UHGV virus genome: UHGV-0148877
Reading direction: 5' to 3' (one strand)
DNA from: a virus
DNA: 40,227 nucleotides
Positions 2,298 to 34,598 of the stretch are shown one piece after another; position 1 is the stretch's first letter; each line of letters begins with the position of its first letter. A program made the position numbers and the translations under genes. The notes under the pieces were generated by a model that worked only from the letters and a program-made list of their open reading frames with translations, did no database searches and was not told the DNA's origin.

Positions 2298-4483
2298 GAA
2301 ACTTCCCCATTGGTTGAAAATATGGCTCCTCCAACGCCAAGTGTATTTCGTGTTGTGCTCAACCTCAGAGGGCTGGAGTCAGAATTAGAATATCCTGTAG
2401 CAGAAATAAAAGATCCTCCACTAATAGTCAACTGCGGAACATCGGCTATATCTGAATAAGTTCTGTCAGCAACAGTATTATTTATAGCCACATATGATCC
2501 AAAAAAACTTCTTATTGTTTGGTTTTTAACTTTACTTCCTTCAATGGTTATCCTACTACCACAGTCGGCAATAAATCCTGAATCTGCATCCAGCGTTGCA
2601 TTCATAAAAGAAGCTTCAGCTCTCTCTACATCAATCCATCTAATATCTTTTGTGGGATTTGCACCAAATACATGACAAATATTAGAGTTAAACCTTACAC
2701 CATCTTGGAGGTGCATTAATTTTTTTATATCTGTACCCCATAGCCTTGGAAAATTAACAGATGCTCCTGCATGGCAATCAAATCCCAGCTCAGCCCCTGA
2801 GATATCTACAGCCTTTCCTGAAATAACAGCACCAGTGTCTGCATTAACGGCTGTTCCACAATTGCGCATATCATTACCAGCAACATCAACGCAACCCGCA
2901 CCATCAATACGCACACCAAGTGCACATCCATAAAAACCTTTTTCAATATTTGGTTCAAGGACTTTACCACTTGTTTCTGCATCACTTTCTTCAACGTCAT
3001 GTCGTCTTGCATCAACATATGCTGTATGAATGCAGGTTAATCCACGATATGAGCAATGTATAGTTTTATGGTCGCGTATATTAACATTTGAACCATCTCT
3101 TACATTCCATCCTATATAACAATAGCTTGCACTTGACCCCTGAAAATCTGCTTTAACATTATAAATACAATTAACTGACGCAACCGTACTCTCTGTGCAC
3201 CGTTCAAACTTGCTTACAGGCATTGATGCCTTGACATTATTTACCAGTTGCAGGGAAGAGTATCTGCTATAAGAAAAATCACATACGTAATACCCTTCTG
3301 GCATATATGCAGCAACACTTTCCTCATCAGGAGCACATCCGGTATGATATGCACTAATTTTTGCACCAAAACTACCATGAATTCCAACGTAGAACTTTCG
3401 AGCACCTGAATACGGATAGAAATTAAGTTCAGCTTTTTGAGTTACAATAAATGCACAAACATCGCTATCATCTCTATTTTCTTCGATCTGAATAGCAAAT
3501 ACAGGACTTTTTGCTGCATCGCAAATGTAAAATAAATACTTGTATTCGTAATACGTTCTAACGATTTTAGTAAACAAACGAGTGTCAGAGAAAACCACTG
3601 AGTCTTCTGATGTTATTTTAATCCAAGACAAATCAACACCTGAACTGAATTCAATTTGATAGTTGATAATATGCCCGGTCTTAATTCTTATTTCGCAGAA
3701 AGCATTACCACCATCCCACATAGGTCTCATTGACTGGGCTGCAATGATTGCATCTTTGAGTGTAGGGTAATCACCCCATTCGCCAACAGTAATAACAAAA
3801 GTATAATATGAGTTAAAAACAGCGGCATTTTTGCCTTTGGATATCAACTCCTTAATCATAAAAATATTATCTTCGTAATCACAAGGAGAAATTATATCCC
3901 TCATTTTGCTTTGAAATGTTCGTTGTCTTGCCCCGCTTCCTGACGGTATAAACCAACCAAAACCACCAACAACCCCGGCGATTGCAGCATCGACATAATT
4001 ACGCATTGAGCGATTATTTACAGCGTCCTGCTCAAATGATGGATCTGCAAGGTTAGAAATTTTGTTTTGCTTTGCATCGTAATATTTTGCAAGCAAAGAT
4101 GGTTTCATCAATGCACGTCTGAACCACCCAAAACATCGCTGGATCAGCATCGTCAGGTAGTCAAATGCATCTTCATGAACTTCGGGGAAAAATTTTCCCT
4201 GATTGCGAAGATCAGTCTCCTGCACCACATCAAGCACACGCTCTATCGTAATTCGCCAGCCAGCAGCAAGCGGAGACGGAAGAACCACAGAACCGCCACT
4301 ATAAGTGCCCGCCCCAGTTACCGTATAACCGGTATCCAGAACCAATTCTGTTACGTTCCCGTTCAGGTCAGACACCTGAACAACCAGGTCTGATTTTTTG
4401 AAAATACGAAAAGTATACGGAAACGATGTCGTAACGCCGTTACCTGTGTATTCGTTGTGGTCAACTTCGGTTGAGACCGTCAT
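2294..4483 (-). CDS. Tailspike / receptor-binding protein
   Basis: 729 aa; N-terminus MTVSTEVDHNEYTGNGVTTSFPYTF resembles the conserved particle-binding domain of podovirus tailspikes; rest is Gly/Ser/Asn-rich as in beta-helix depolymerases; ATG with GGAG RBS; the C-terminal two thirds is visibly more AT-rich than flanking DNA. Confidence 0.8.
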   Translation of the reverse strand: MTVSTEVDHNEYTGNGVTTSFPYTFRIFKKSDLVVQVSDLNGNVTELVLDTGYTVTGAGTYSGGSVVLPSPLAAGWRITIERVLDVVQETDLRNQGKFFPEVHEDAFDYLTMLIQRCFGWFRRALMKPSLLAKYYDAKQNKISNLADPSFEQDAVNNRSMRNYVDAAIAGVVGGFGWFIPSGSGARQRTFQSKMRDIISPCDYEDNIFMIKELISKGKNAAVFNSYYTFVITVGEWGDYPTLKDAIIAAQSMRPMWDGGNAFCEIRIKTGHIINYQIEFSSGVDLSWIKITSEDSVVFSDTRLFTKIVRTYYEYKYLFYICDAAKSPVFAIQIEENRDDSDVCAFIVTQKAELNFYPYSGARKFYVGIHGSFGAKISAYHTGCAPDEESVAAYMPEGYYVCDFSYSRYSSLQLVNNVKASMPVSKFERCTESTVASVNCIYNVKADFQGSSASYCYIGWNVRDGSNVNIRDHKTIHCSYRGLTCIHTAYVDARRHDVEESDAETSGKVLEPNIEKGFYGCALGVRIDGAGCVDVAGNDMRNCGTAVNADTGAVISGKAVDISGAELGFDCHAGASVNFPRLWGTDIKKLMHLQDGVRFNSNICHVFGANPTKDIRWIDVERAEASFMNATLDADSGFIADCGSRITIEGSKVKNQTIRSFFGSYVAINNTVADRTYSDIADVPQLTISGGSFISATGYSNSDSSPLRLSTTRNTLGVGGAIFSTNGEVS

Positions 4484-4586: not shown

Positions 4587-4603
4587 ATTACCTTTCGGGT
4601 AAT
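4587..4603. promoter_or_regulatory. Operator palindrome ATTACC-TTTCG-GGTAAT
   Basis: Perfect 6+6 inverted repeat, about 75 nt upstream of the SOS-regulated small gene; an upstream hybrid copy ATTACC-TGAAA-AACCAC lies at 4538-4554. Confidence 0.55.
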
Positions 4604-4639: not shown

Positions 4640-4659
4640 TACTGTATAAATATACAGTT
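4640..4659 (+). promoter_or_regulatory. LexA (SOS) box TACTGTATAAATATACAGTT
   Basis: Perfect CTGT-N8-ACAG with AT-rich spacer and TA flanks (core 4642-4657), 23 nt upstream of the ATG at 4680. Confidence 0.7.
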
Positions 4660-4679
4660 ATTGCATGGAGAAGATTAAG

Positions 4680-4937
4680 ATGCAGCAGTATCACTATCCA
4701 CTGGAAGACGGATTTACCGAAAGGATTCACACGCCAGAAGGCGTCAGGTCACTGGTGGAGGGATCGCACTTGATGAAATTACTCCGGGATCTCGATAAGG
4801 ATGGATTTAATGTCGATGGCCCACTTGCCGAACTGACTGCACTGATTAACTACGTCACCAGCTCACAGATGTCTATGCAGGATCTGCAAACACATCTCGA
4901 CTATTGTGCCGAACAATTACGAAAACAAACCCGGTAA
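4680..4937 (+). CDS. Small SOS-regulated protein paralogous to the antirepressor C-terminal domain (candidate antirepressor)
   Basis: 85 aa from the ATG at 4680 (GGAGAAG RBS); LexA box directly upstream; aligns by eye (about 40% identity over about 40 residues) with the C-terminal about 70 aa of the Bro-N antirepressor at 6083-6769 (IHTPEGV/IHSPSGV, AELTALINYV/AELTTMFCYI, DLQTHLDY/DIQTHAEY). Confidence 0.5.
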   Translation: MQQYHYPLEDGFTERIHTPEGVRSLVEGSHLMKLLRDLDKDGFNVDGPLAELTALINYVTSSQMSMQDLQTHLDYCAEQLRKQTR

Positions 4938-5800: not shown

Positions 5801-5817
5801 ATTACCTTTGCGGTAAA
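5801..5817. promoter_or_regulatory. Operator palindrome ATTACC-TTTGC-GGTAAA
   Basis: Perfect TTACC-N5-GGTAA core in the divergent region between the membrane-protein gene and the antirepressor gene. Confidence 0.5.
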
Positions 5818-6082
5818 TTTACATCGCACTCCTCTTGTGCCATAGTAATCGGGCACTGGCAAAATCCAGTGCCGGGATTGGCGTCCCGAGTTACTACAGA
5901 GGCACATATGCCGCATAAGCGGTTTTTTTATGTGTAAAGCGCACCTATTCTATGGTGGGCTGTGTGGGGGCACCGAAAGGTGCGCCGGGTCCTTTGTAGC
6001 CGGTTACGCCAACCCTGCACAGTTCACCACCAACCGATTGGCGTCGGTAGTGGTGATTAACCTAACTACAAAGGTGATCGCT

Positions 6083-6769
6083 ATGACTGCTAACGTAACC
6101 CCATCTGTTTTTCATTTTGAATCAGAAGCAACCATTCGAGCCATTGTTATTGATGGAAATCCTTGGTTTGTTGCCAAAGACGTTATTAAAGCTCTTCAAC
6201 TGACAAACCCCACTATGTCAATAAAATCTCTTGATGATGATGAAAGGGCTAAATTTAACTTAGGCCGTCAAGGCGAAACCAATATTATCAACGAGTCAGG
6301 CCTCTACACACTGATCCTCCGCTGCCGCGACGCAGTGACACCAGGCACTATCCCCTACCGCTTTCGTAAATGGGTTACAGGTGAGGTTCTTCCTCAGATC
6401 CGCCGCACCGGAAGTTACATTAAAAACTCGCTCCCGCAGGAAGAACGCATAAAGATGGTTGCCGACCAGGTAGCCAACGCCACGGCGTCAGCAGTAATGC
6501 AGGCGATGAAGATAGAGAACAAAACCTACAGTGCCCCACTGAAGCCCGGCTACCGCAGCCTGATTCATTCGCCGTCTGGTGTTCTCGGCCTGACGGAGAA
6601 CTCACTGCTGATGAATCTGCTGAACCAGTTACAGGACGACGGGCACGACGTATCGGGCGCGGCGGCGGAGCTGACCACCATGTTCTGCTACATCGTCGGT
6701 GTGAGCAAATGCCTGCGTGATATCCAGACGCACGCGGAGTACATCAACGACAAGGCAGGGTTCTTCTGA
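6083..6769 (+). CDS. Antirepressor with Bro-N domain
   Basis: 228 aa from the ATG at 6083 (AAGGTGA RBS); N-terminus IRAIVIDGNPWFVAKDVIKAL matches the Bro-N pattern; C-terminal domain paralogous to the 4680-4937 product. Confidence 0.8.
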   Translation: MTANVTPSVFHFESEATIRAIVIDGNPWFVAKDVIKALQLTNPTMSIKSLDDDERAKFNLGRQGETNIINESGLYTLILRCRDAVTPGTIPYRFRKWVTGEVLPQIRRTGSYIKNSLPQEERIKMVADQVANATASAVMQAMKIENKTYSAPLKPGYRSLIHSPSGVLGLTENSLLMNLLNQLQDDGHDVSGAAAELTTMFCYIVGVSKCLRDIQTHAEYINDKAGFF

Positions 6770-6777
6770 CGGGCGGC

Positions 6778-6800
6778 GGCACAGGGATGTGCCTTTAAAT
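6778..6800 (+). terminator. Possible intrinsic terminator after the antirepressor gene
   Basis: GGCACA-GGGA-TGTGCC hairpin followed by TTTAAAT. Confidence 0.35.
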
Positions 6801-6813
6801 AATTCTGTACAGA

Positions 6814-6842
6814 TTGCAGACTGTGGGTGAATAGCGTACTAT
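6814..6842 (+). promoter_or_regulatory. Sigma70-like promoter (TTGCAG-17-TACTAT) overlapping an operator
   Basis: -35 TTGCAG at 6814-6819, 17-bp spacer, -10 TACTAT at 6837-6842; the palindrome at 6841-6857 overlaps the -10 and start region. Confidence 0.45.
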
Positions 6843-6857
6843 TACCTCAAGGGTAAA
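6841..6857. promoter_or_regulatory. Operator palindrome ATTACC-TCAAG-GGTAAA
   Basis: Perfect TTACC-N5-GGTAA core overlapping the -10 of the promoter that reads into the toxin-antitoxin-like pair. Confidence 0.5.
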
Positions 6858-6916
6858 CGGATTGGTTTCATTTTTATTAATCCGTGTAATGAACTTATGA
6901 GATATGAGGTAATGTC

Positions 6917-7096
6917 ATGCGAAACGAAAAATTGCAGATGCGTAGAGCGCAAGCTGCCGCAAGACGTTCTTTCAATGGAAGCGTAGAGTGCGTAAAAGTT
7001 ACTATGACAAAAGATCACGCAAGTCGCGTATCCCGCGCTTTCTTTGATTCTCGTAACAATAAGGAAAATTATGAGTTCGTCTGCGTCGCAGAATGA
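6917..7096 (+). CDS. Small basic protein, candidate antitoxin (below the ORF-track cut-off)
   Basis: 59 aa (MRNEKLQMRRAQAAARRSF...), ATG with GAGGTAAT RBS; overlaps the start of the downstream toxin-like gene by 26 nt, the usual antitoxin-toxin arrangement. Confidence 0.3.
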   Translation: MRNEKLQMRRAQAAARRSFNGSVECVKVTMTKDHASRVSRAFFDSRNNKENYEFVCVAE

Positions 7097-7616
7097 TAAA
7101 AATCAAATTGTCAGATATAAGGGTCGAGTATTGCATACGCAAAATTTCTCGGCCCTTTGTGCATCTGATCTTGAGCTGAAGAAAGTATCTGATGCCTTTA
7201 CCCAGTATTGGAAAACGGGATACCATCCATCTCTTGGTAAAGATGCTGCATTTGCTCGTCCGACAGAAATGCTTAAACTAAATGTCAGGCATACTCATGT
7301 CGATAACCAAGACTATATTCCAGAAGATAGTGATAAAAAACACACTGGTAAAAAATCATCTTGGGATGCATGGAAAAAAATAGCGTCTGTGCAAGTAAAA
7401 TGCATACCAACAAGTAATTGCTTTTTAGTTTATTCGGTAAATCACAATCGTGATGCGCTGGTTATGTTTTTTGTTGACGCAGATGCCCACAACATAACTG
7501 AGCAAGAAGAGTTTAAAGAGGCAGCAATCACTATCAGTTATCAATTCTTTGAGAAAACAAAAACAGAACCAATGCCTTTAGAAGAAGATCTTTTTTCTGA
7601 TAAATGGAAGGAATAA
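7071..7616 (+). CDS. YafO-like toxin-family protein (putative ribosome-dependent mRNA interferase)
   Basis: 181 aa from the ATG at 7071 (AAGGAAAA RBS); segments DAFTQYWKTGYHPSLGKDAAF, LKLNVRHTHV and CFLVYSVNHNRDALVMFFV resemble the conserved blocks I recall for YafO-family toxins; AT-rich; family assignment is from memory. Confidence 0.45.
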   Translation: MSSSASQNDKNQIVRYKGRVLHTQNFSALCASDLELKKVSDAFTQYWKTGYHPSLGKDAAFARPTEMLKLNVRHTHVDNQDYIPEDSDKKHTGKKSSWDAWKKIASVQVKCIPTSNCFLVYSVNHNRDALVMFFVDADAHNITEQEEFKEAAITISYQFFEKTKTEPMPLEEDLFSDKWKE

Positions 7617-7711
7617 GCCCGCGCCGCGGGCTTTTTTGTGGACGAAACAAAAGTCAGTGCTACACTCATTGACGCCACATTGAGGTGGATTATAGATGGA
7701 AATTTTTCACA

Positions 7712-7873
7712 ATGAAAAAAGCATTTGCTGCACTGTTCGTTTTGTTGTCTCTGGTAGCTTCAACTCAGGCCTTTGCCGGTCGTTGTCAGCACGACAGCGA
7801 TACTGCCGCTGACGGCTCCCGCTGCGGTGGGCGTTCTGCGGATTCCCGTCCGGGCGGCGGTGGCATTCGTTAA
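7712..7873 (+). CDS. Small secreted peptide (signal peptide plus about 31-aa Gly/Arg/Asp-rich mature part with 2 Cys)
   Basis: MKKAFAALFVLLSLVASTQAFA then GRCQHDSDTAADGSRCGG...; classical signal peptide with AFA-G cleavage site; followed at once by a hairpin terminator. Confidence 0.4.
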   Translation: MKKAFAALFVLLSLVASTQAFAGRCQHDSDTAADGSRCGGRSADSRPGGGGIR

Positions 7874-7902: not shown

Positions 7903-8754
7903 TCACTGTGCAGTTTTCGCTGATCGATTTTCAGCTCTAAATTCAAGAACCGTTTCAATATTTCTTTCCTTCAGCATATCAATAACATTTTTATTCATTT
8001 GACTATCACTGGTTAATAACTGGTAAACGTTGCTTCTCTCTTTATCAGAGTTTTCTTTAACAGCTGCTTTGCATGCCAAATGCTTATTGAAATTTTCTAC
8101 ATCGCTAGTACAGGAATTTACGGCTGCTGATGAAATATCAGACGCTGAAGAAACACCGTCATCCAAACGTTTTATAGCATTTTCTATACATGAGTTAAGG
8201 GAATAAACGACAACTGAGCGATACCCTTCAGACGCACACCATTCTAAATTTCTTGAAGGATCGAGTGGTTTTACTTCGCTGGATTGAATTAACTTGTCAA
8301 AAACTGACTTATATTCAATCTGTTTTTTATCTATAGCCCATACTTCAGTAGCTGATTTATAATTCCCCGTATGCCTATTAACATCAAATCCATGTTTTAT
8401 AAGCAAATCTGCCCATGAAAGATTTATTGATTCATTGTTATGAGGCCATTTTCCTGTCAGAACCGCCCCCATAGACCCCATATATCCGCCATATGATGGT
8501 ATAGCACCATGGCTCAGTAACTTCTCTGCAACCACAGGGCAATTAATTACATAAGAGGCGTAAAGCCCATTCCATAAAGCCCCTCTATAGTAATCGCCAC
8601 GATTAGGTTCTTTTAAGTCGATAGCCTTTGATAATTGTTCGCACGTTTTGCATGCATCAAAGTTATCCTTATTGCATTGCAATGAACTGGCAGCTGTAGG
8701 ATTTACAGAGACTATTGAAAGCACTATGCCAAAAAACAAATTTATTTTTTTCAT
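7903..8754 (-). CDS. Secreted Cys-containing protein of unknown function
   Basis: 283 aa; N-terminal signal peptide MKKINLFFGIVLSIVSVNPTAASS; about 8 Cys; strongly AT-rich relative to the structural genes; ATG 1 nt after the stop of the 1129-aa protein gene. Confidence 0.6.
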   Translation of the reverse strand: MKKINLFFGIVLSIVSVNPTAASSLQCNKDNFDACKTCEQLSKAIDLKEPNRGDYYRGALWNGLYASYVINCPVVAEKLLSHGAIPSYGGYMGSMGAVLTGKWPHNNESINLSWADLLIKHGFDVNRHTGNYKSATEVWAIDKKQIEYKSVFDKLIQSSEVKPLDPSRNLEWCASEGYRSVVVYSLNSCIENAIKRLDDGVSSASDISSAAVNSCTSDVENFNKHLACKAAVKENSDKERSNVYQLLTSDSQMNKNVIDMLKERNIETVLEFRAENRSAKTAQ

Positions 8755-24474: not shown

Positions 24475-24491
24475 ATTACCTTTCAGGTAAC
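24475..24491. promoter_or_regulatory. Operator palindrome ATTACC-TTTCA-GGTAAC, with a TTGACA hexamer at 24454-24459
   Basis: Perfect TTACC-N5-GGTAA core; same TTGACA-then-palindrome arrangement as at 34689-34733; oriented toward the plus-strand tRNA. Confidence 0.55.
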
Positions 24492-24812: not shown

Positions 24813-24889
24813 GTGGCATTAGCTCAGTTGGACAGAGCAACCGCCTTCTAAGCGGTTGGTCGCAGGTTCGAATCCTGCATGCCACGCCA
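24813..24889 (+). tRNA. tRNA-Arg (anticodon UCU)
   Basis: 77 nt folded by hand: 7-bp acceptor stem GTGGCAT/ATGCCAC, D stem GCTC/GAGC, anticodon stem ACCGC/GCGGT with loop CTTCTAA (anticodon TCT), T stem GCAGG/CCTGC with loop TTCGAAT, discriminator G, encoded CCA. Confidence 0.9.
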
Positions 24890-25205: not shown

Positions 25206-26681
25206 TTAAGCATAGGGATCGTAATCTGTAATGGCCTTGCCTTGCTGGTTCTGCTGACCGGGAATTCGCAGACGCTTCGACACCGGGAAAGCAAACGTCA
25301 GCAGTAGCGCATCGCCTTTACCCGGCGAACGCCCAAGCCGCTCCTTGATATCTTCCTTCGGTTCGATAACGATTTTACCGTCCACGCGAACTTTGTACTC
25401 TGCCGCCGACAGGTCGTCCGCTGTTTCCTGGTCATCCAGCATGCCGCCCAGCCTCAGCCATGTCTTGCATGCATTGAACATCTCCCCACGCTTGTTAAGC
25501 ATCTGCGGGTCAGTGGACGCACCGCCGAACGGAACAAGTTGCCATGTACGTCCCCAGCCATCACCGATTGACTTCAAACCGGTTCCGTAACCGAAGTCGA
25601 TGAACACCGCGTCAGCCTGGTACTGGTCTTCAAAGTCAGCGATACGCTTCGCCATAATCAGATCGTCGGTGGTCTTGTTGCCAGTCCACAACACCTTACT
25701 GTGCAGCCCCTGCCGCAGGTATATCACAGCGTCATCAACGCCGGAGTATGCAGGGTCAACGCCGATTATCACCGGAGCATGTGCCACCTGCGCAGCAGTT
25801 ACCACCCGTTTCATTGCCTCGTCAGTAAGACCGGTAGGGATAAACTGCAATTCAGATGCATCAGGGAATATGCCGCGCACACGGATTTTAACGAAGTCGC
25901 TGTCTTCCCCGTAGTCATCAACCCATTTCTGCAACTGCTGTTTGTTGGTGCCTTCCACCGTCCGGCTGTCAATCTGCGCAGTTTTCCAGCGGTGTTTATA
26001 TTTGCGGAAACATTCGCGGAAACGCCCGGTATTACGCGTCGGGTTCCCGAACGCCACCCAGATGATTTCGGTGTCTTCGTCCGTCAGCGCACCCTCTGCT
26101 ACCTCCCACACCAGATCGGCAATGTTGGATGCTTCGTCGAAAACCACGATGATGCGTTTGCGCTCGTTGTGTAGTCCGGCGAATGCCTCAGTGTTGTGCT
26201 CAGACCAGGGGATTGCGTCAGCTCGCCACCGCTTGTCGTGCCCAGGATCATTGCTGTACATCGCGGTAGCGGTACAGGTAAACCAGTCTTTCGTGATGGC
26301 AAGGTTCGACCACTTGATAATTTCCGGCCAGGTCTTCGTTCGTAGCTGGTTGTCGGTGTTGGCGGTCACCACGACCTTACAATCCTCGCAAGTGGACATG
26401 CCCCAGTTGATCAGCATTGAGATGAATGCGGATTTACCAATACCGTGACCAGAAGCGCGTGCCAGCATAAGCGGCTGATATCGCGTCTCTGGATTCTGCA
26501 GGTGATCACGTATCTCTCGGAACGCATCGGCCTGCCACTGACGTGGACCGGTGGCATGTGCCAGTTCAGTACCCTCTTCCCCCCACGGGAACGCATAGAG
26601 GGCATAGCCAAGCGGATCGTGAGTGAACCCTGCAATATCCTCGATCAACTGCTCTTCAGGAGATAACGCTGTATCTGTCAC
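25206..26681 (-). CDS. Terminase large subunit
   Basis: 491 aa; N-terminal ATPase region with a Walker A-like GHGIGKS and C-terminal nuclease-like region; start (GTG with AGGATGG RBS) overlaps the TerS stop. Confidence 0.85.
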   Translation of the reverse strand: MTDTALSPEEQLIEDIAGFTHDPLGYALYAFPWGEEGTELAHATGPRQWQADAFREIRDHLQNPETRYQPLMLARASGHGIGKSAFISMLINWGMSTCEDCKVVVTANTDNQLRTKTWPEIIKWSNLAITKDWFTCTATAMYSNDPGHDKRWRADAIPWSEHNTEAFAGLHNERKRIIVVFDEASNIADLVWEVAEGALTDEDTEIIWVAFGNPTRNTGRFRECFRKYKHRWKTAQIDSRTVEGTNKQQLQKWVDDYGEDSDFVKIRVRGIFPDASELQFIPTGLTDEAMKRVVTAAQVAHAPVIIGVDPAYSGVDDAVIYLRQGLHSKVLWTGNKTTDDLIMAKRIADFEDQYQADAVFIDFGYGTGLKSIGDGWGRTWQLVPFGGASTDPQMLNKRGEMFNACKTWLRLGGMLDDQETADDLSAAEYKVRVDGKIVIEPKEDIKERLGRSPGKGDALLLTFAFPVSKRLRIPGQQNQQGKAITDYDPYA

Positions 26682-27274
26682 TGATTACCATCCTGACGTT
26701 CTTTGAGTCGCTTCCTGGCTGCTGCTATGCGATCAGCAATTGTCACATTCACATTAACATCCAGACGTTCTTTGAACGCGTTGACATCAACATGCTTACC
26801 AATCAGTTCTAGGTTCTTCACCTTGTCAGGCCATTTAATTTTTTTGAGGATTGTCTCTATCGAATCCTCGTTCATGTTCATGATGGTCGATGACAGATCA
26901 AAGCCACTAAGCGTAGTGCGCCAGATTTTCGGCCACTCACGGATTGGTTTAAGGCTCCCATCGTCGTTGAGGATGTCGATCACGTCCATCTGGTCGATCT
27001 CCACCAGGCGCATGAGAACGTAATCAGCACTGACGCGCATTCGTTTGTTGCGCTCCTCCATCAACTCGGCAATCCGTTTCTGAATGCGTTCATCGCGCAT
27101 CATGACACTGGCTTTAACTGCCGCTGTATTTGGGGAGAATCCTGCGTTAATCGCTGCCTGAGTCTGGTTTTCAGGCGTTTTGATGTATGACTGGCAATAA
27201 GCCTCCTGCATTGCAGTTAGTGGCTTAAATTGCGTTGATTTGCGTTTATAGGTTTTAGGTTCAGCAGGCATCAT
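26678..27274 (-). CDS. Terminase small subunit
   Basis: About 198 aa from the internal ATG pair at 27274/27271 (MMPAEPKTYKRK...); immediately upstream of TerL and overlapping its start; the track's longer N-terminus would run through operator-like repeats. Confidence 0.6.
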   Translation of the reverse strand: MMPAEPKTYKRKSTQFKPLTAMQEAYCQSYIKTPENQTQAAINAGFSPNTAAVKASVMMRDERIQKRIAELMEERNKRMRVSADYVLMRLVEIDQMDVIDILNDDGSLKPIREWPKIWRTTLSGFDLSSTIMNMNEDSIETILKKIKWPDKVKNLELIGKHVDVNAFKERLDVNVNVTIADRIAAARKRLKERQDGNQ

Positions 27275-27290
27275 AACCACCGTGGTAATA

Positions 27291-27307
27291 GTTACCGTTG
27301 TGGTAAT
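27291..27307. promoter_or_regulatory. Operator palindrome GTTACC-GTTGT-GGTAAT before the late (terminase) genes
   Basis: Perfect TTACC-N5-GGTAA core; part of a 14-bp direct repeat (GGTA(C/A)CTATTACCAC x2 on the minus strand) between an early-operon terminator and the TerS start. Confidence 0.5.
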
Positions 27308-27316
27308 AGTACCATG

Positions 27317-27346
27317 CAAAATAAAGCCGCCATAGTTGGCGGCAGT
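27317..27346 (-). terminator. Intrinsic terminator between the early/nin-like block and the terminase genes
   Basis: On the minus strand GCCGCC-AACTAT-GGCGGC hairpin followed by TTTATTTTG. Confidence 0.5.
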
Positions 27347-27392
27347 ATTCAAAACCCATCAAATTCATCATGCATAATCTACTCGTGACATT

Positions 27393-34013: not shown

Positions 34014-34598
34014 ATGAAAAGTATCCAGGACGTCCGCAGGCAAAATCTCAACGACTTGATCGACCGTGAATTCAATGGTGTTCAGACGCGGATGGCTGAA
34101 AAACTTGGAACTCAGGCAAATCTGGTAAACCGCTGGGCTCTTGGCAAGAAGGTTATCGGCGACCAGGTTGCGCGAAAAATTGAAGCTGCCGCCAATAAAC
34201 CCCGTAACTGGCTTGATATCGATCGCTCGCTTTCTCAGGAAGGTTTTCAGCCTGTCGGCCCGAGTGATATAGGTCAGCTGGCTGCTCACAACCTGGAACG
34301 CTGGATGAGCGAAAGCCGCGACCTTTCAACGCAGGGAAAACTACACCGCGCATCCGGCGTCGCCCAGGTGACAATCAGCCGCCTGTTAAACAATGAGGTC
34401 AGCGTTTCCATTTCCACCCTGGAGAATGTTGCATCCGCATTCGGGCGTCATGGCTATGAATTACTGATTCACCCGCACGACCCTGCGACTATCAACTATG
34501 ACCGCTCGCGCTACGCATTGTTACCCGAAACCGAGAAAGCAAAGATCGAAAGTTACATTGAATTTGTCATCAACCAGAACGAAAAAAACAAACAATAA
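34014..34598 (+). CDS. Prophage repressor (CI-like, HTH; no S24 peptidase domain evident)
   Basis: 194 aa; N-terminal HTH (GVQTRMAEKLGTQANLVNRWALGKK) and a second HTH-like segment (ASGVAQVTISRLLNNE); divergent from cro-like gene; flanked by operator clusters; followed by a terminator. Confidence 0.7.
   Translation: MKSIQDVRRQNLNDLIDREFNGVQTRMAEKLGTQANLVNRWALGKKVIGDQVARKIEAAANKPRNWLDIDRSLSQEGFQPVGPSDIGQLAAHNLERWMSESRDLSTQGKLHRASGVAQVTISRLLNNEVSVSISTLENVASAFGRHGYELLIHPHDPATINYDRSRYALLPETEKAKIESYIEFVINQNEKNKQ

What the first reader, a model, noticed from the sequence alone, without database searches (positions are those of the whole stretch)
6814..7616. Toxin-antitoxin-like pair (small basic ORF plus YafO-like toxin) behind a promoter overlapped by a phage operator
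The 181-aa protein has blocks that match my recollection of YafO-family toxins, and a 59-aa basic ORF that the ORF track missed overlaps its start by 26 nt, the classic antitoxin-toxin layout. The predicted promoter (TTGCAG-17-TACTAT) has a perfect operator palindrome over its -10, so the phage regulator may control the module rather than only antitoxin autoregulation. Both genes are AT-rich. This could serve prophage maintenance or abortive infection.
Basis: partly seen in the sequence, partly recalled or inferred. Interest (0 to 1): 0.6.

Follow-up and report, generated by a model that had tools for sequence, protein, structure and literature searches.

The report
Repressor-gated YafO-like toxin–antitoxin cassette in prophage
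A two-gene cassette in an epsilon15/phiV10-like E. coli prophage encodes a distant, enlarged relative of the mRNA-cutting toxin YafO and a small basic partner protein that always travels with it, in an exchangeable cargo slot whose promoter carries the phage repressor's binding site. It is a fairly ordinary toxin–antitoxin module with an undescribed partner family and an unusual control arrangement.

Summary
ORFs 6917..7096 (59 aa, pI 9.9) and 7071..7616 (181 aa) overlap by 26 nt, are AT-rich (38% vs 48.5% GC) and end at an intrinsic terminator. TTGCAG-17-TACTAT is present but weak (7/12). The palindrome TTACC-N5-GGTAA (6842-6856) abuts the -10 and covers the start site. It occurs 13 times in the window (0.52 expected) and is the motif annotated as the repressor site in phage epsilon15.

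The small ORF is a real gene (pN/pS 0.41). A homolog precedes the toxin in every locus examined, including four or more unrelated phage contexts, and it belongs to no known antitoxin family.

In related phages the same promoter, operator and terminator frame different cargo.

Toxicity, neutralisation and repression are all inferred. RefSeq already names the toxin, so novelty lies in the partner family and the repressor-gated slot. Interest is moderate.

The parts
6814..6819 (+). -35-like hexamer TTGCAG
   Evidence: Read. It matches consensus at 3 of 6 positions. TTGnnn sits at the same distance from the operator in 8 diverged loci.
6837..6842 (+). -10-like hexamer TACTAT; its last T is the first base of the operator
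   Evidence: Read. Relatives have TAATAT or TATACT at the same place. The ant promoter has the same junction, TATCAT|TACC.
6842..6856 (.). Operator TTACCTCAAGGGTAA (epsilon15-type repressor site), covering about -7 to +8 of the predicted promoter
   Evidence: 13 sites in the window against 0.52 expected. The identical motif is annotated 'protein_bind: repressor' in NC_004775. It is present 207-239 nt upstream of the toxin start in all epsilon15-like contexts.
6857..7614 (+). Exchangeable cargo cassette (38% GC) between the operator and the terminator
   Evidence: Homology with phiv142-3, AR_0086 and EC.W1-9 stops right after the operator and resumes at the terminator. GC.
6917..7096 (+). Gene for the 59-aa basic partner protein (probable antitoxin); SD GAGG at 6906-6909
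   Evidence: phrog_6685, E 1.4e-44. 13 homolog clusters, 11 of them exactly 59 aa. pN/pS 0.41, with variable columns 29/29/44 of 50 by codon position. Always upstream of the toxin. No Pfam, NCBIfam or PADLOC family.
7071..7616 (+). Gene for the 181-aa long-form YafO-family (RelE/BECR-fold) toxin; SD AAGGA at 7061-7065
7071..7096 (+). 26-nt overlap of the two genes (the toxin is in the +1 frame), suggesting translational coupling
   Evidence: Within the overlap the small-ORF frame is the constrained one (pN/pS 0.20 against 0.85 for the toxin frame).
7615..7640 (+). Intrinsic terminator (8-bp GC-rich stem, loop of 3, T run), shared by all cargo variants of the slot
   Evidence: The same terminator is present in L002 and L057.
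34014..34598 (+). Prophage repressor gene (HTH, 194 aa), the inferred trans-acting regulator of the operator
   Evidence: Operators lie upstream (33896, 33944) and downstream (34656, 34718) of it. The region is 98% identical to that of vB_EcoP_ZX5, whose repressor blocks lytic growth when overexpressed (PMC9782041). PHROG transcriptional repressor and regulator families.

Best explanation
The region is a two-gene, type II toxin-antitoxin-like cassette carried as cargo by an epsilon15/phiV10-like (Uetakevirus) prophage.

The 181-aa protein is an enlarged, divergent member of the YafO family. It has a RelE/ParE (BECR) fold core with conserved His74, His76, Tyr121 and His140. It also has an N-terminal extension, a ~25-residue insertion and a conserved C-terminal tail. 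By homology it should stop translation by cutting mRNA.

The 59-aa basic protein encoded just upstream is translationally coupled to it through a 26-nt overlap. It is the toxin's dedicated partner and most probably the neutralising antitoxin. Its constrained C-terminus (YEFVCVAE) is a likely contact surface.

The cassette fills an exchangeable slot of the phage backbone. A weak promoter, whose start site is covered by the phage repressor's operator, opens the slot, and an intrinsic terminator closes it. The module is therefore expected to be shut off in a stable lysogen. It should be transcribed when the repressor is absent or inactivated: on infection of a naive cell, or on SOS induction through the phage's antirepressors.

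Shown here: gene structure, conservation of the pair, homology and fold of the toxin, over-representation of the operator and its conservation with the slot.

Inferred: RNase activity, neutralisation by the small protein, repression by the 34014..34598 product, and any biological role.

For: Partner. A small upstream ORF similar to the 59-aa or 63-aa form is detected by tblastn in 53 of 54 loci, and the 54th has a diverged 55-aa copy. Small basic partners of 57-69 aa (pI 9.1-11.1), sharing a motif and an invariant Ser, also precede toxin homologs of 30-45% identity in siphovirus, myovirus and P2-like tail regions. Selection is purifying. Partner identity falls in step with toxin identity. One natural locus has an 8-nt frameshift in the toxin gene with the partner gene intact.

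Control. Operator statistics. The depositors' repressor-site annotation in epsilon15. The same promoter, operator and terminator around four different cargos. 61 of 5426 complete E. coli genomes carry this cassette, and a further ~113 share only the promoter/operator segment.
Against: The Pfam score (23.4 bits) is below the family's gathering cut-off of 25.

BLASTP against K-12 YafO finds nothing (E 50), and the family profile against K-12 YafO alone gives only 6% probability.

Foldseek finds no significant PDB or viral match; HigB2 and YoeB appear only at E about 1.

The good AF2 model depends on an alignment that already includes YafO orthologs; with the family alone pLDDT was 52.

The partner is basic, whereas YafN is acidic. 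It matches no known antitoxin family and no solved structure, and neutralisation was not tested.

In one distant locus a HicB-like gene lies downstream of the toxin homolog.

The promoter is weak by consensus. Repressor binding to this motif is a prediction or annotation, not an experiment I could find.

A module that is silent in lysogens does not fit classical addiction or abortive-infection roles.
Confidence: 0.6

Rival explanations
1. The same toxin-antitoxin pair is expressed in the lysogen, because the operator at this weak promoter is poorly occupied or an unseen internal promoter exists. It would then act as a classical prophage 'moron': abortive-infection defence against other phages, or stabilisation of the prophage.
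For: The cassette has typical moron anatomy: its own promoter and terminator, low GC, and a variable slot between conserved phage genes. In siphovirus, myovirus and P2-like contexts the same pair sits among late tail genes without this operator, so repressor gating is not intrinsic to the module. RelE-superfamily TA modules are known to act in phage defence (PMC11980606).
Against: The operator covers the predicted start site. Its fusion to the -10 is conserved in 8 diverged loci and in slots with other cargo, which argues that it is functional. No internal sigma-70-like promoter was called between 6857 and 6916. There is no PADLOC defence-system hit.
Confidence: 0.2
2. The 181-aa RelE-fold protein is a lytic-phase effector that the phage uses after derepression, for example to degrade host mRNA or to interfere with competing or co-induced phages. 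The 59-aa basic protein is a timer, chaperone or nucleic-acid-binding cofactor rather than an antitoxin in the addiction sense.
For: Repressor-gated expression alongside the antirepressor unit. The partner is basic, unlike typical acidic antitoxins, and the toxin is near neutral. The toxin carries extra conserved elements absent from YafO: the W98/W101 insertion and the PMPLEEDLFSDKW tail.
Against: A ribosome-linked mRNase would also cut phage messages. Tight 1:1 synteny, gene overlap and co-divergence are the hallmark of toxin-antitoxin pairs. The gene order matches YafN-YafO.
Confidence: 0.15
3. The small ORF is not a gene and the overlap is accidental; the 181-aa gene is a solitary or decaying YafO-like remnant.
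For: RefSeq (PGAP) does not annotate the small ORF in E. coli chromosomes. It has no Pfam or NCBIfam family.
Against: The length is kept at 59-60 codons across sequences with pS about 0.5. pN/pS is 0.41 and the third codon position varies most. It belongs to a PHROG family and is annotated in phage TL-2011b. Recognisable homologs lie upstream of toxin homologs only 30-45% identical. There is a good SD at correct spacing.
Confidence: 0.03

Closest known systems
E. coli K-12 YafN-YafO (dinB-yafN-yafO-yafP operon)
   Same: The toxin is homologous to YafO at profile level over essentially the whole of YafO. It shares the FGxD, HxH, (T)SD-x-LVY and AH motifs. The gene order is small upstream gene then toxin, tightly packed. 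Expression is probably tied to the SOS response in both: directly through LexA for yafNO (Singletary et al. 2009, listed as ref 44 in PMC3337138), and indirectly here through the antirepressor and repressor (inference).
   Different: 181 aa against 132 aa, with an N-terminal extension, a ~25-aa insertion and a conserved C-terminal tail. No BLASTP similarity, and below the Pfam cut-off. The partner is a 59-aa basic protein with no Phd/YefM domain, whereas YafN is 97 aa, acidic and Phd/YefM-type. It is phage-borne cargo under a phage operator, with no LexA box at its promoter.
HigB/RelE/YoeB/YafQ ribosome-dependent mRNA endonuclease toxins (RelE/ParE BECR-fold superfamily)
   Different: Sequence identity is only 3-16%. 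Foldseek is not significant. The protein is about twice the size of these toxins. higBA has the reverse gene order.
Phage P1/P7 C1-controlled transcription units and the immI (c4-icd-ant) region
   Same: One repressor has many operators scattered over the genome, each gating a separate unit (13 sites). The unit next door is a c4 antisense RNA/ant module recognised by Rfam.
   Different: The operator is a symmetric TTACC-N5-GGTAA site, whereas P1's is an asymmetric 17-mer (own knowledge). The gated unit here carries exchangeable accessory cargo.
Prophage 'morons' and accessory or defence-gene hotspots (for example P2/P4 hotspots; own knowledge)
   Same: A fixed position between conserved phage genes holds different, compositionally foreign genes in different relatives.
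   Different: Promoter, operator and terminator belong to the backbone and are retained while only the coding cargo is swapped. The promoter carries the lysogeny repressor's site, so expression in the lysogen is not expected.

Membership tests
YafO toxin family (Pfam PF13957) | Score at or above the Pfam gathering threshold (25 bits) | tested here: not met
   23.4 bits, E 6.6e-5, residues 46-148 against profile positions 3-88 of 101. All 24 relatives hit at E<=0.01, best 2.9e-6. K-12 YafO scores 135 bits.
YafO toxin family (Pfam PF13957) | Homology to bona fide YafO orthologs detectable at profile level | tested here: met
   Long-form family (44 sequences) against 17 YafO orthologs collected independently: Prob 96.9%, E 1.8e-10, 111 columns. 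Close family only: Prob 70.7%, E 3.8e-5. Semi-circular set: 99.6%. K-12 YafO as a single sequence: 6%.
YafO toxin family (Pfam PF13957) | Conserved family motifs (F..Y, P..FG+D, HxH, (T)SD..LVY, AH) | tested here: met
   F43, P53, H74, H76, Y121, H140 and F159 are invariant in the joint alignment of both groups. G56 and H76 are invariant over 59 diverse sequences.
YafO toxin family (Pfam PF13957) | Cognate antitoxin of YafN (Phd/YefM) type encoded upstream | tested here: not met
   The upstream 59-aa protein has no PhdYeFM hit or any other family. YafN hits PF02604. The gene order antitoxin-then-toxin is kept.
YafO toxin family (Pfam PF13957) | Translation inhibition by mRNA cleavage; growth arrest reversed by the antitoxin | not testable with these tools
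   Known for K-12 YafO (PMC2814082).
RelE/ParE (BECR-fold) toxin superfamily | RelE-like alpha/beta fold | tested here: met
Type II toxin-antitoxin module | Two adjacent co-oriented, co-transcribed small genes with conserved pairing | tested here: met
   26-nt overlap with a single promoter and terminator. Partner detected in 53 of 54 loci by tblastn, plus a diverged copy in the last. The pairing persists in five further distant lineages.
Type II toxin-antitoxin module | Protein antitoxin binds and neutralises the toxin and is more labile | not testable with these tools
   There is only indirect support: the constrained C-terminus of the partner, and a natural toxin frameshift with an intact partner gene.
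Type II toxin-antitoxin module | Autoregulation by the antitoxin at its own promoter | tested here: inconclusive
   The only over-represented site at the promoter is the phage repressor operator. The 6857-6885 hairpin or palindrome is not significant. The partner has no recognisable DNA-binding domain.
Epsilon15-type repressor operator regulon | Match to the ATTACC-N5-GGTAAT site in a promoter region | tested here: met
   Perfect TTACC-N5-GGTAA at 6842-6856, fused to the -10. The same motif is annotated as the repressor-binding site in NC_004775. Actual binding was not tested.
Known anti-phage defence systems (PADLOC-DB v2) | Hit to a defence-system protein model | tested here: not met
   No hit for either protein or for the neighbours at E<=1.

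The most novel reading that the evidence does not exclude
The long-form YafO-like toxin and its small basic partner form a distinct, so far undescribed toxin-partner family that is restricted to tailed-phage genomes and moves between them as a unit. In Uetakeviruses it has been captured in a repressor-gated cargo slot. The toxin would then be silent in the lysogen and made only when the repressor is lifted, acting as an induction- or infection-phase weapon (against competing phages, or for host shut-off) rather than as an addiction or lysogen-defence module. The basic partner may work differently from classical acidic antitoxins.
Probability: 0.25. Interest if true: 0.6.

Novelty: new variant of a known kind. 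Interest (0 to 1): 0.4.

Why it matters
If confirmed, three things would follow.

First, the YafO family, which is small (about 1K members in Pfam according to PMC11980606) and has no solved structure, would gain a phage-borne long-form clade. This clade has a confident RelE-like model and a clear set of candidate catalytic residues (H74, H76, Y121, H140).

Second, a new small basic partner or antitoxin family would be defined. Genome annotation pipelines currently skip it: it is unannotated in RefSeq E. coli chromosomes.

Third, epsilon15/phiV10-like prophages, which are common in E. coli including EHEC-associated strains, would be shown to hold a plug-in slot where promoter, repressor operator and terminator are fixed and the cargo is swapped. 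That gives a simple experimental handle, since one repressor and one promoter control diverse unknown cargo genes. It would allow a direct test of what temperate phages express only at the moment the repressor is lifted.

None of this overturns current understanding of toxin-antitoxin systems.

Tried and rejected
- BLASTP of the 181-aa protein against K-12 YafO found no similarity, so pairwise comparison is too weak at this distance.
- NCBIfam and PADLOC gave no family for either protein.
- Sequence searches of the PDB with the protein, the family profile, the partner profile and the YafO profile found nothing meaningful.
- The first AF2 run, with only the 24 close relatives, gave pLDDT 52 and was discarded.
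- Foldseek against the PDB and BFVD was not significant. The afdb50 library was unavailable.
- A scan of GTDB representative genomes found no relative.
- Scans with distant homologs or broad alignments were unproductive.
- I tested whether the alternative 146-aa cargo of phiv142-3 is also YafO-like. hhalign aligned the HxH and S..IHY motifs but gave only 4.8% probability, so this is not claimed.
- I looked for a LexA box at the cassette promoter, as in the yafNO operon, and found none.
- I tested whether the 5'UTR inverted repeat at 6857-6885 is a significant structure; it is not (z -0.94).
- I considered an RHH antitoxin for the partner because of its VKVTMTKDHA..RVSRAF segment. The protein is too short for the second helix and there was no Pfam or PDB support, so this is left open.
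- Rfam found no RNA family inside the cassette itself, which gives no support for a type I or type III RNA antitoxin.
- I searched the literature for this module and for the operator in Uetakeviruses. I found no paper on the module.

Full report
**Context.** The window is an epsilon15/phiV10-like (Uetakevirus) prophage of E. coli. Region 6700-7700 is 98.7% identical to phage TL-2011b, where the two ORFs are annotated as gp45 (hypothetical) and gp44. RefSeq names gp44 'type II toxin-antitoxin system YafO family toxin'. A 100% identical copy lies in E. coli S1-CAM-04-C, in a prophage beside guaA. The finding sits between a Bro-N antirepressor gene (6074..6769) and a small conserved secreted or membrane protein gene (7709..7873).

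**Observation.** Both ORFs exist as described: 6917..7096 (59 aa) and 7071..7616 (181 aa), overlapping by 26 nt. Each has a Shine-Dalgarno sequence at proper spacing. The small protein is basic (pI 9.9) and the large one near neutral (pI 6.4). The cassette has 38.3% GC against 48.5% for the window. A strong intrinsic terminator follows the stop codon (7615-7633 plus a T run).

The hexamers TTGCAG-17-TACTAT are present but match consensus at only 7 of 12 positions, and the scan did not call them.

The palindrome TTACCTCAAGGGTAA (6842-6856) shares one base with the -10 hexamer and covers the expected start site. With at most one mismatch the motif occurs 13 times in the window against 0.52 expected. 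By position relative to the ORFs, 11 of the 13 sites are intergenic. Pairs lie upstream and downstream of the HTH repressor gene 34014..34598, the upstream pair in the divergent region it shares with a cro-like gene.

**Is the toxin a YafO relative?** Direct tests are marginal:
- PF13957 gives E 6.6e-5 and 23.4 bits, just under the 25-bit cut-off.
- BLASTP against K-12 YafO finds nothing.
- The family profile against K-12 YafO alone gives 6% probability.

Family-level tests are clear:
- All 24 close relatives hit PF13957.
- An exhaustive profile search of 1.84 billion representatives returns 70 proteins. These grade from 160-200-aa long forms into 130-150-aa YafO-like proteins, and 32 of 59 of them hit PF13957 at E<=1e-3.
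- To avoid circularity I collected YafO orthologs separately, starting from K-12 YafO. The 44-sequence long-form alignment matches them with hhalign probability 96.9%, E 1.8e-10, over 111 columns covering YafO residues 12-129. The 24 close relatives alone give 70.7%, E 3.8e-5.
- F43, P53, H74, H76, Y121, H140 and F159 are invariant across both groups.

Relative to YafO the protein has an N-terminal extension, a ~25-residue insertion carrying W98 and W101, and a conserved C-terminal tail (PMPLEEDLFSDKW).

I therefore regard the protein as a genuine, divergent long-form member of the YafO lineage. Formal Pfam membership for this sequence is just missed.

**Is the small ORF real, and is it the partner?**
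- It belongs to a PHROG family (E 1.4e-44) and has 13 homolog clusters, 11 of them exactly 59 aa.
- Over ten diverged loci its non-overlapping part has pS 0.49, pN 0.20 and ratio 0.41. Variable columns number 29, 29 and 44 of 50 at codon positions 1, 2 and 3. The toxin's ratio is 0.25.
- Inside the overlap the small-ORF frame is the constrained one (0.20 against 0.85). This points to a functional C-terminus, YEFVCVAE.
- Among 54 loci holding the toxin gene, tblastn finds a small upstream ORF similar to the 59-aa or 63-aa form in 53. The last (L055) has a diverged 55-aa copy ending NEFCCAE.
- Toxin homologs of only 30-45% identity lie in quite different phage backgrounds. These include siphovirus tail-assembly regions, a myovirus baseplate region and a P2-like tail region. 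They too are preceded by a 57-69-aa basic ORF that overlaps or abuts them.
- All these partners are basic (pI 9.1-11.1). They align with a shared [VM][TS]x[ED]x[SA]xx-hydrophobic-S[RK] motif, an invariant Ser and a hydrophobic-then-acidic C-terminus.
- None matches Pfam, and the family profile finds no related PDB chain.
- One natural locus carries an 8-nt frameshifting deletion in the toxin gene with the partner gene intact.

This is the comparative signature of a cognate toxin-antitoxin pair. Neutralisation itself remains untested, and the partner is unlike YafN, which is acidic and of Phd/YefM type.

**Control.** The epsilon15 reference record annotates exactly this motif (ATTACC-N5-GGTAAT) as 'protein_bind: repressor, lysogeny'. 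The window's immunity region is 98% identical to that of vB_EcoP_ZX5, whose repressor blocks lytic growth when overexpressed (PMC9782041).

In eight diverged epsilon15-like loci carrying the cassette, the flanks differ but TTGnnn-17/18-nAnnAT is fused to a perfect operator 207-239 nt upstream of the toxin start. The Serratia locus has TTGAAA-17-TAATAT with the operator 10 nt downstream.

The same promoter, operator and terminator also frame other cargo:
- a 55-aa plus 146-aa pair in phiv142-3;
- a 108-aa plus DUF2335 membrane-protein pair in EC.W1-9 and ZX5;
- a single 210-aa gene in E. coli AR_0086;
- no comparable cargo gene annotated in phiV10.

In complete E. coli genomes, 61 of 5426 carry this cassette and about 113 more share only the promoter/operator segment. 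The regulatory frame therefore belongs to the phage backbone and the coding cargo is exchangeable. A protein bound at -7 to +8 should block initiation (an established principle). I infer that the module is off in the lysogen and on when the repressor is absent or inactivated.

**Neighbourhood supporting that logic.** Rfam finds c4-a1b1 targets, isrK and a C4 antisense RNA just upstream of ant (5840-6034). That makes it a P1 immI-like unit behind another operator-fused promoter. A perfect LexA-box-like site (CTGTATAAATATACAG, 4642-4657) precedes a 90-aa ORF homologous to the antirepressor's C-terminal domain. An SOS to antirepressor to repressor route would then switch on every operator-gated unit, including this cassette. 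This is inference.

**Verdict.** The toxin's family assignment is already in RefSeq, so that part is not new. Not described in anything I could search are three things: the long-form clade with its dedicated small basic partner, the partner's omission from chromosome annotations, and the repressor-gated plug-in slot. Function remains inferred. Interest is moderate.

Noticed in passing
window 5840-6034 (+), upstream of ant 6074..6769: Rfam finds c4-a1b1 targets (RF03163, 44.3 bits, just under its cut-off), isrK (RF01394, 74.2 bits) and C4 antisense RNA (RF01695, 79.5 bits). The antirepressor unit is therefore organised like the P1/P7 immI region, behind promoter TTGATT-18-TATCAT fused to operator 5802-5816.
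   Followed up: partly
window 4642-4657 and ORF 4665..4937 (+): A perfect LexA-box-like palindrome, CTGTATAAATATACAG, lies 8 nt upstream of a 90-aa ORF. That ORF belongs to phrog_450, the same family as the C-terminal domain of the Bro-N antirepressor, so it may be an SOS-controlled small antirepressor. An operator site at 4588 is nearby. Genome-wide the relaxed LexA pattern is not above chance: 16 matches against 13.4 expected.
   Followed up: partly
L002 3100-3800 (phiv142-3); L009 1600-2500 (EC.W1-9/ZX5); L057 2000-2760 (E. coli AR_0086); L011 (phiV10): The same operator-promoter and terminator frame different cargo. phiv142-3 has a 55-aa ORF plus an unannotated 146-aa ORF (3358-3798, phrog_5954) with HYH and S..IHY motifs that align weakly to YafO motifs (hhalign 4.8%, not significant). 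EC.W1-9 and ZX5 have an overlapping 108-aa plus 167-aa DUF2335 membrane-protein pair. AR_0086 has a single 210-aa gene (phrog_1349). phiV10 has no comparable cargo gene annotated there.
   Followed up: partly
L055 1630-1845 and 1889-2056: In the most diverged podovirus-type locus there are two small ORFs upstream of the toxin homolog. One is the 55-aa partner. The other is a 71-aa ORF whose C-terminal half repeats the partner motif (..PIMTKEQSKSFSDAIHKDMNSNDNHEFVL), which suggests a tandem duplicate of the partner gene.
   Followed up: partly
L053 about 4301-4310 (corresponds to window 7372-7379): An 8-nt deletion (GGAAAAAA) frameshifts the toxin gene after about codon 100, while the promoter, operator and small ORF are intact. 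This is a natural toxin knockout.
   Followed up: yes
L005 4775-4790, L006, L046 and L052 upstream regions: A second palindrome, TGACG-N4-CGTCA, lies at or next to the promoter of the cassette in two siphovirus contexts (just after a TAAACT -10) and in two epsilon15-like contexts (as the -35 TTGACG). It is absent from the window. It could be a cassette-borne autoregulatory site or a coincidence.
   Followed up: no
window 24476-24490 and 24813-24889 (+): An operator site with a consensus TTGACA -35 lies upstream of a phage tRNA-Arg(UCU) gene, so another accessory unit appears to be repressor-gated.
   Followed up: no
window 27274-27306: Two adjacent operator sites fall inside the 5' end of ORF 26678..27352 (-), which is small terminase by analogy with L059. 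Either that gene's start is placed too far upstream or the repressor binds within coding sequence.
   Followed up: no
window 7903..8754 (-): An AT-rich (36-42% GC) 283-aa ORF with a signal-peptide-like N-terminus (phrog_6118, no Pfam) occupies a second variable position. The 100%-identical-cassette strain has a 297-nt gene there, and TL-2011b has an Ant plus Arc-like pair.
   Followed up: no
L063 1488-1808: In a P2-like context a HicB-like antitoxin gene lies directly downstream of the distant toxin homolog P0059, which also has the 69-aa upstream partner. It is unclear whether this belongs to a separate module.
   Followed up: no
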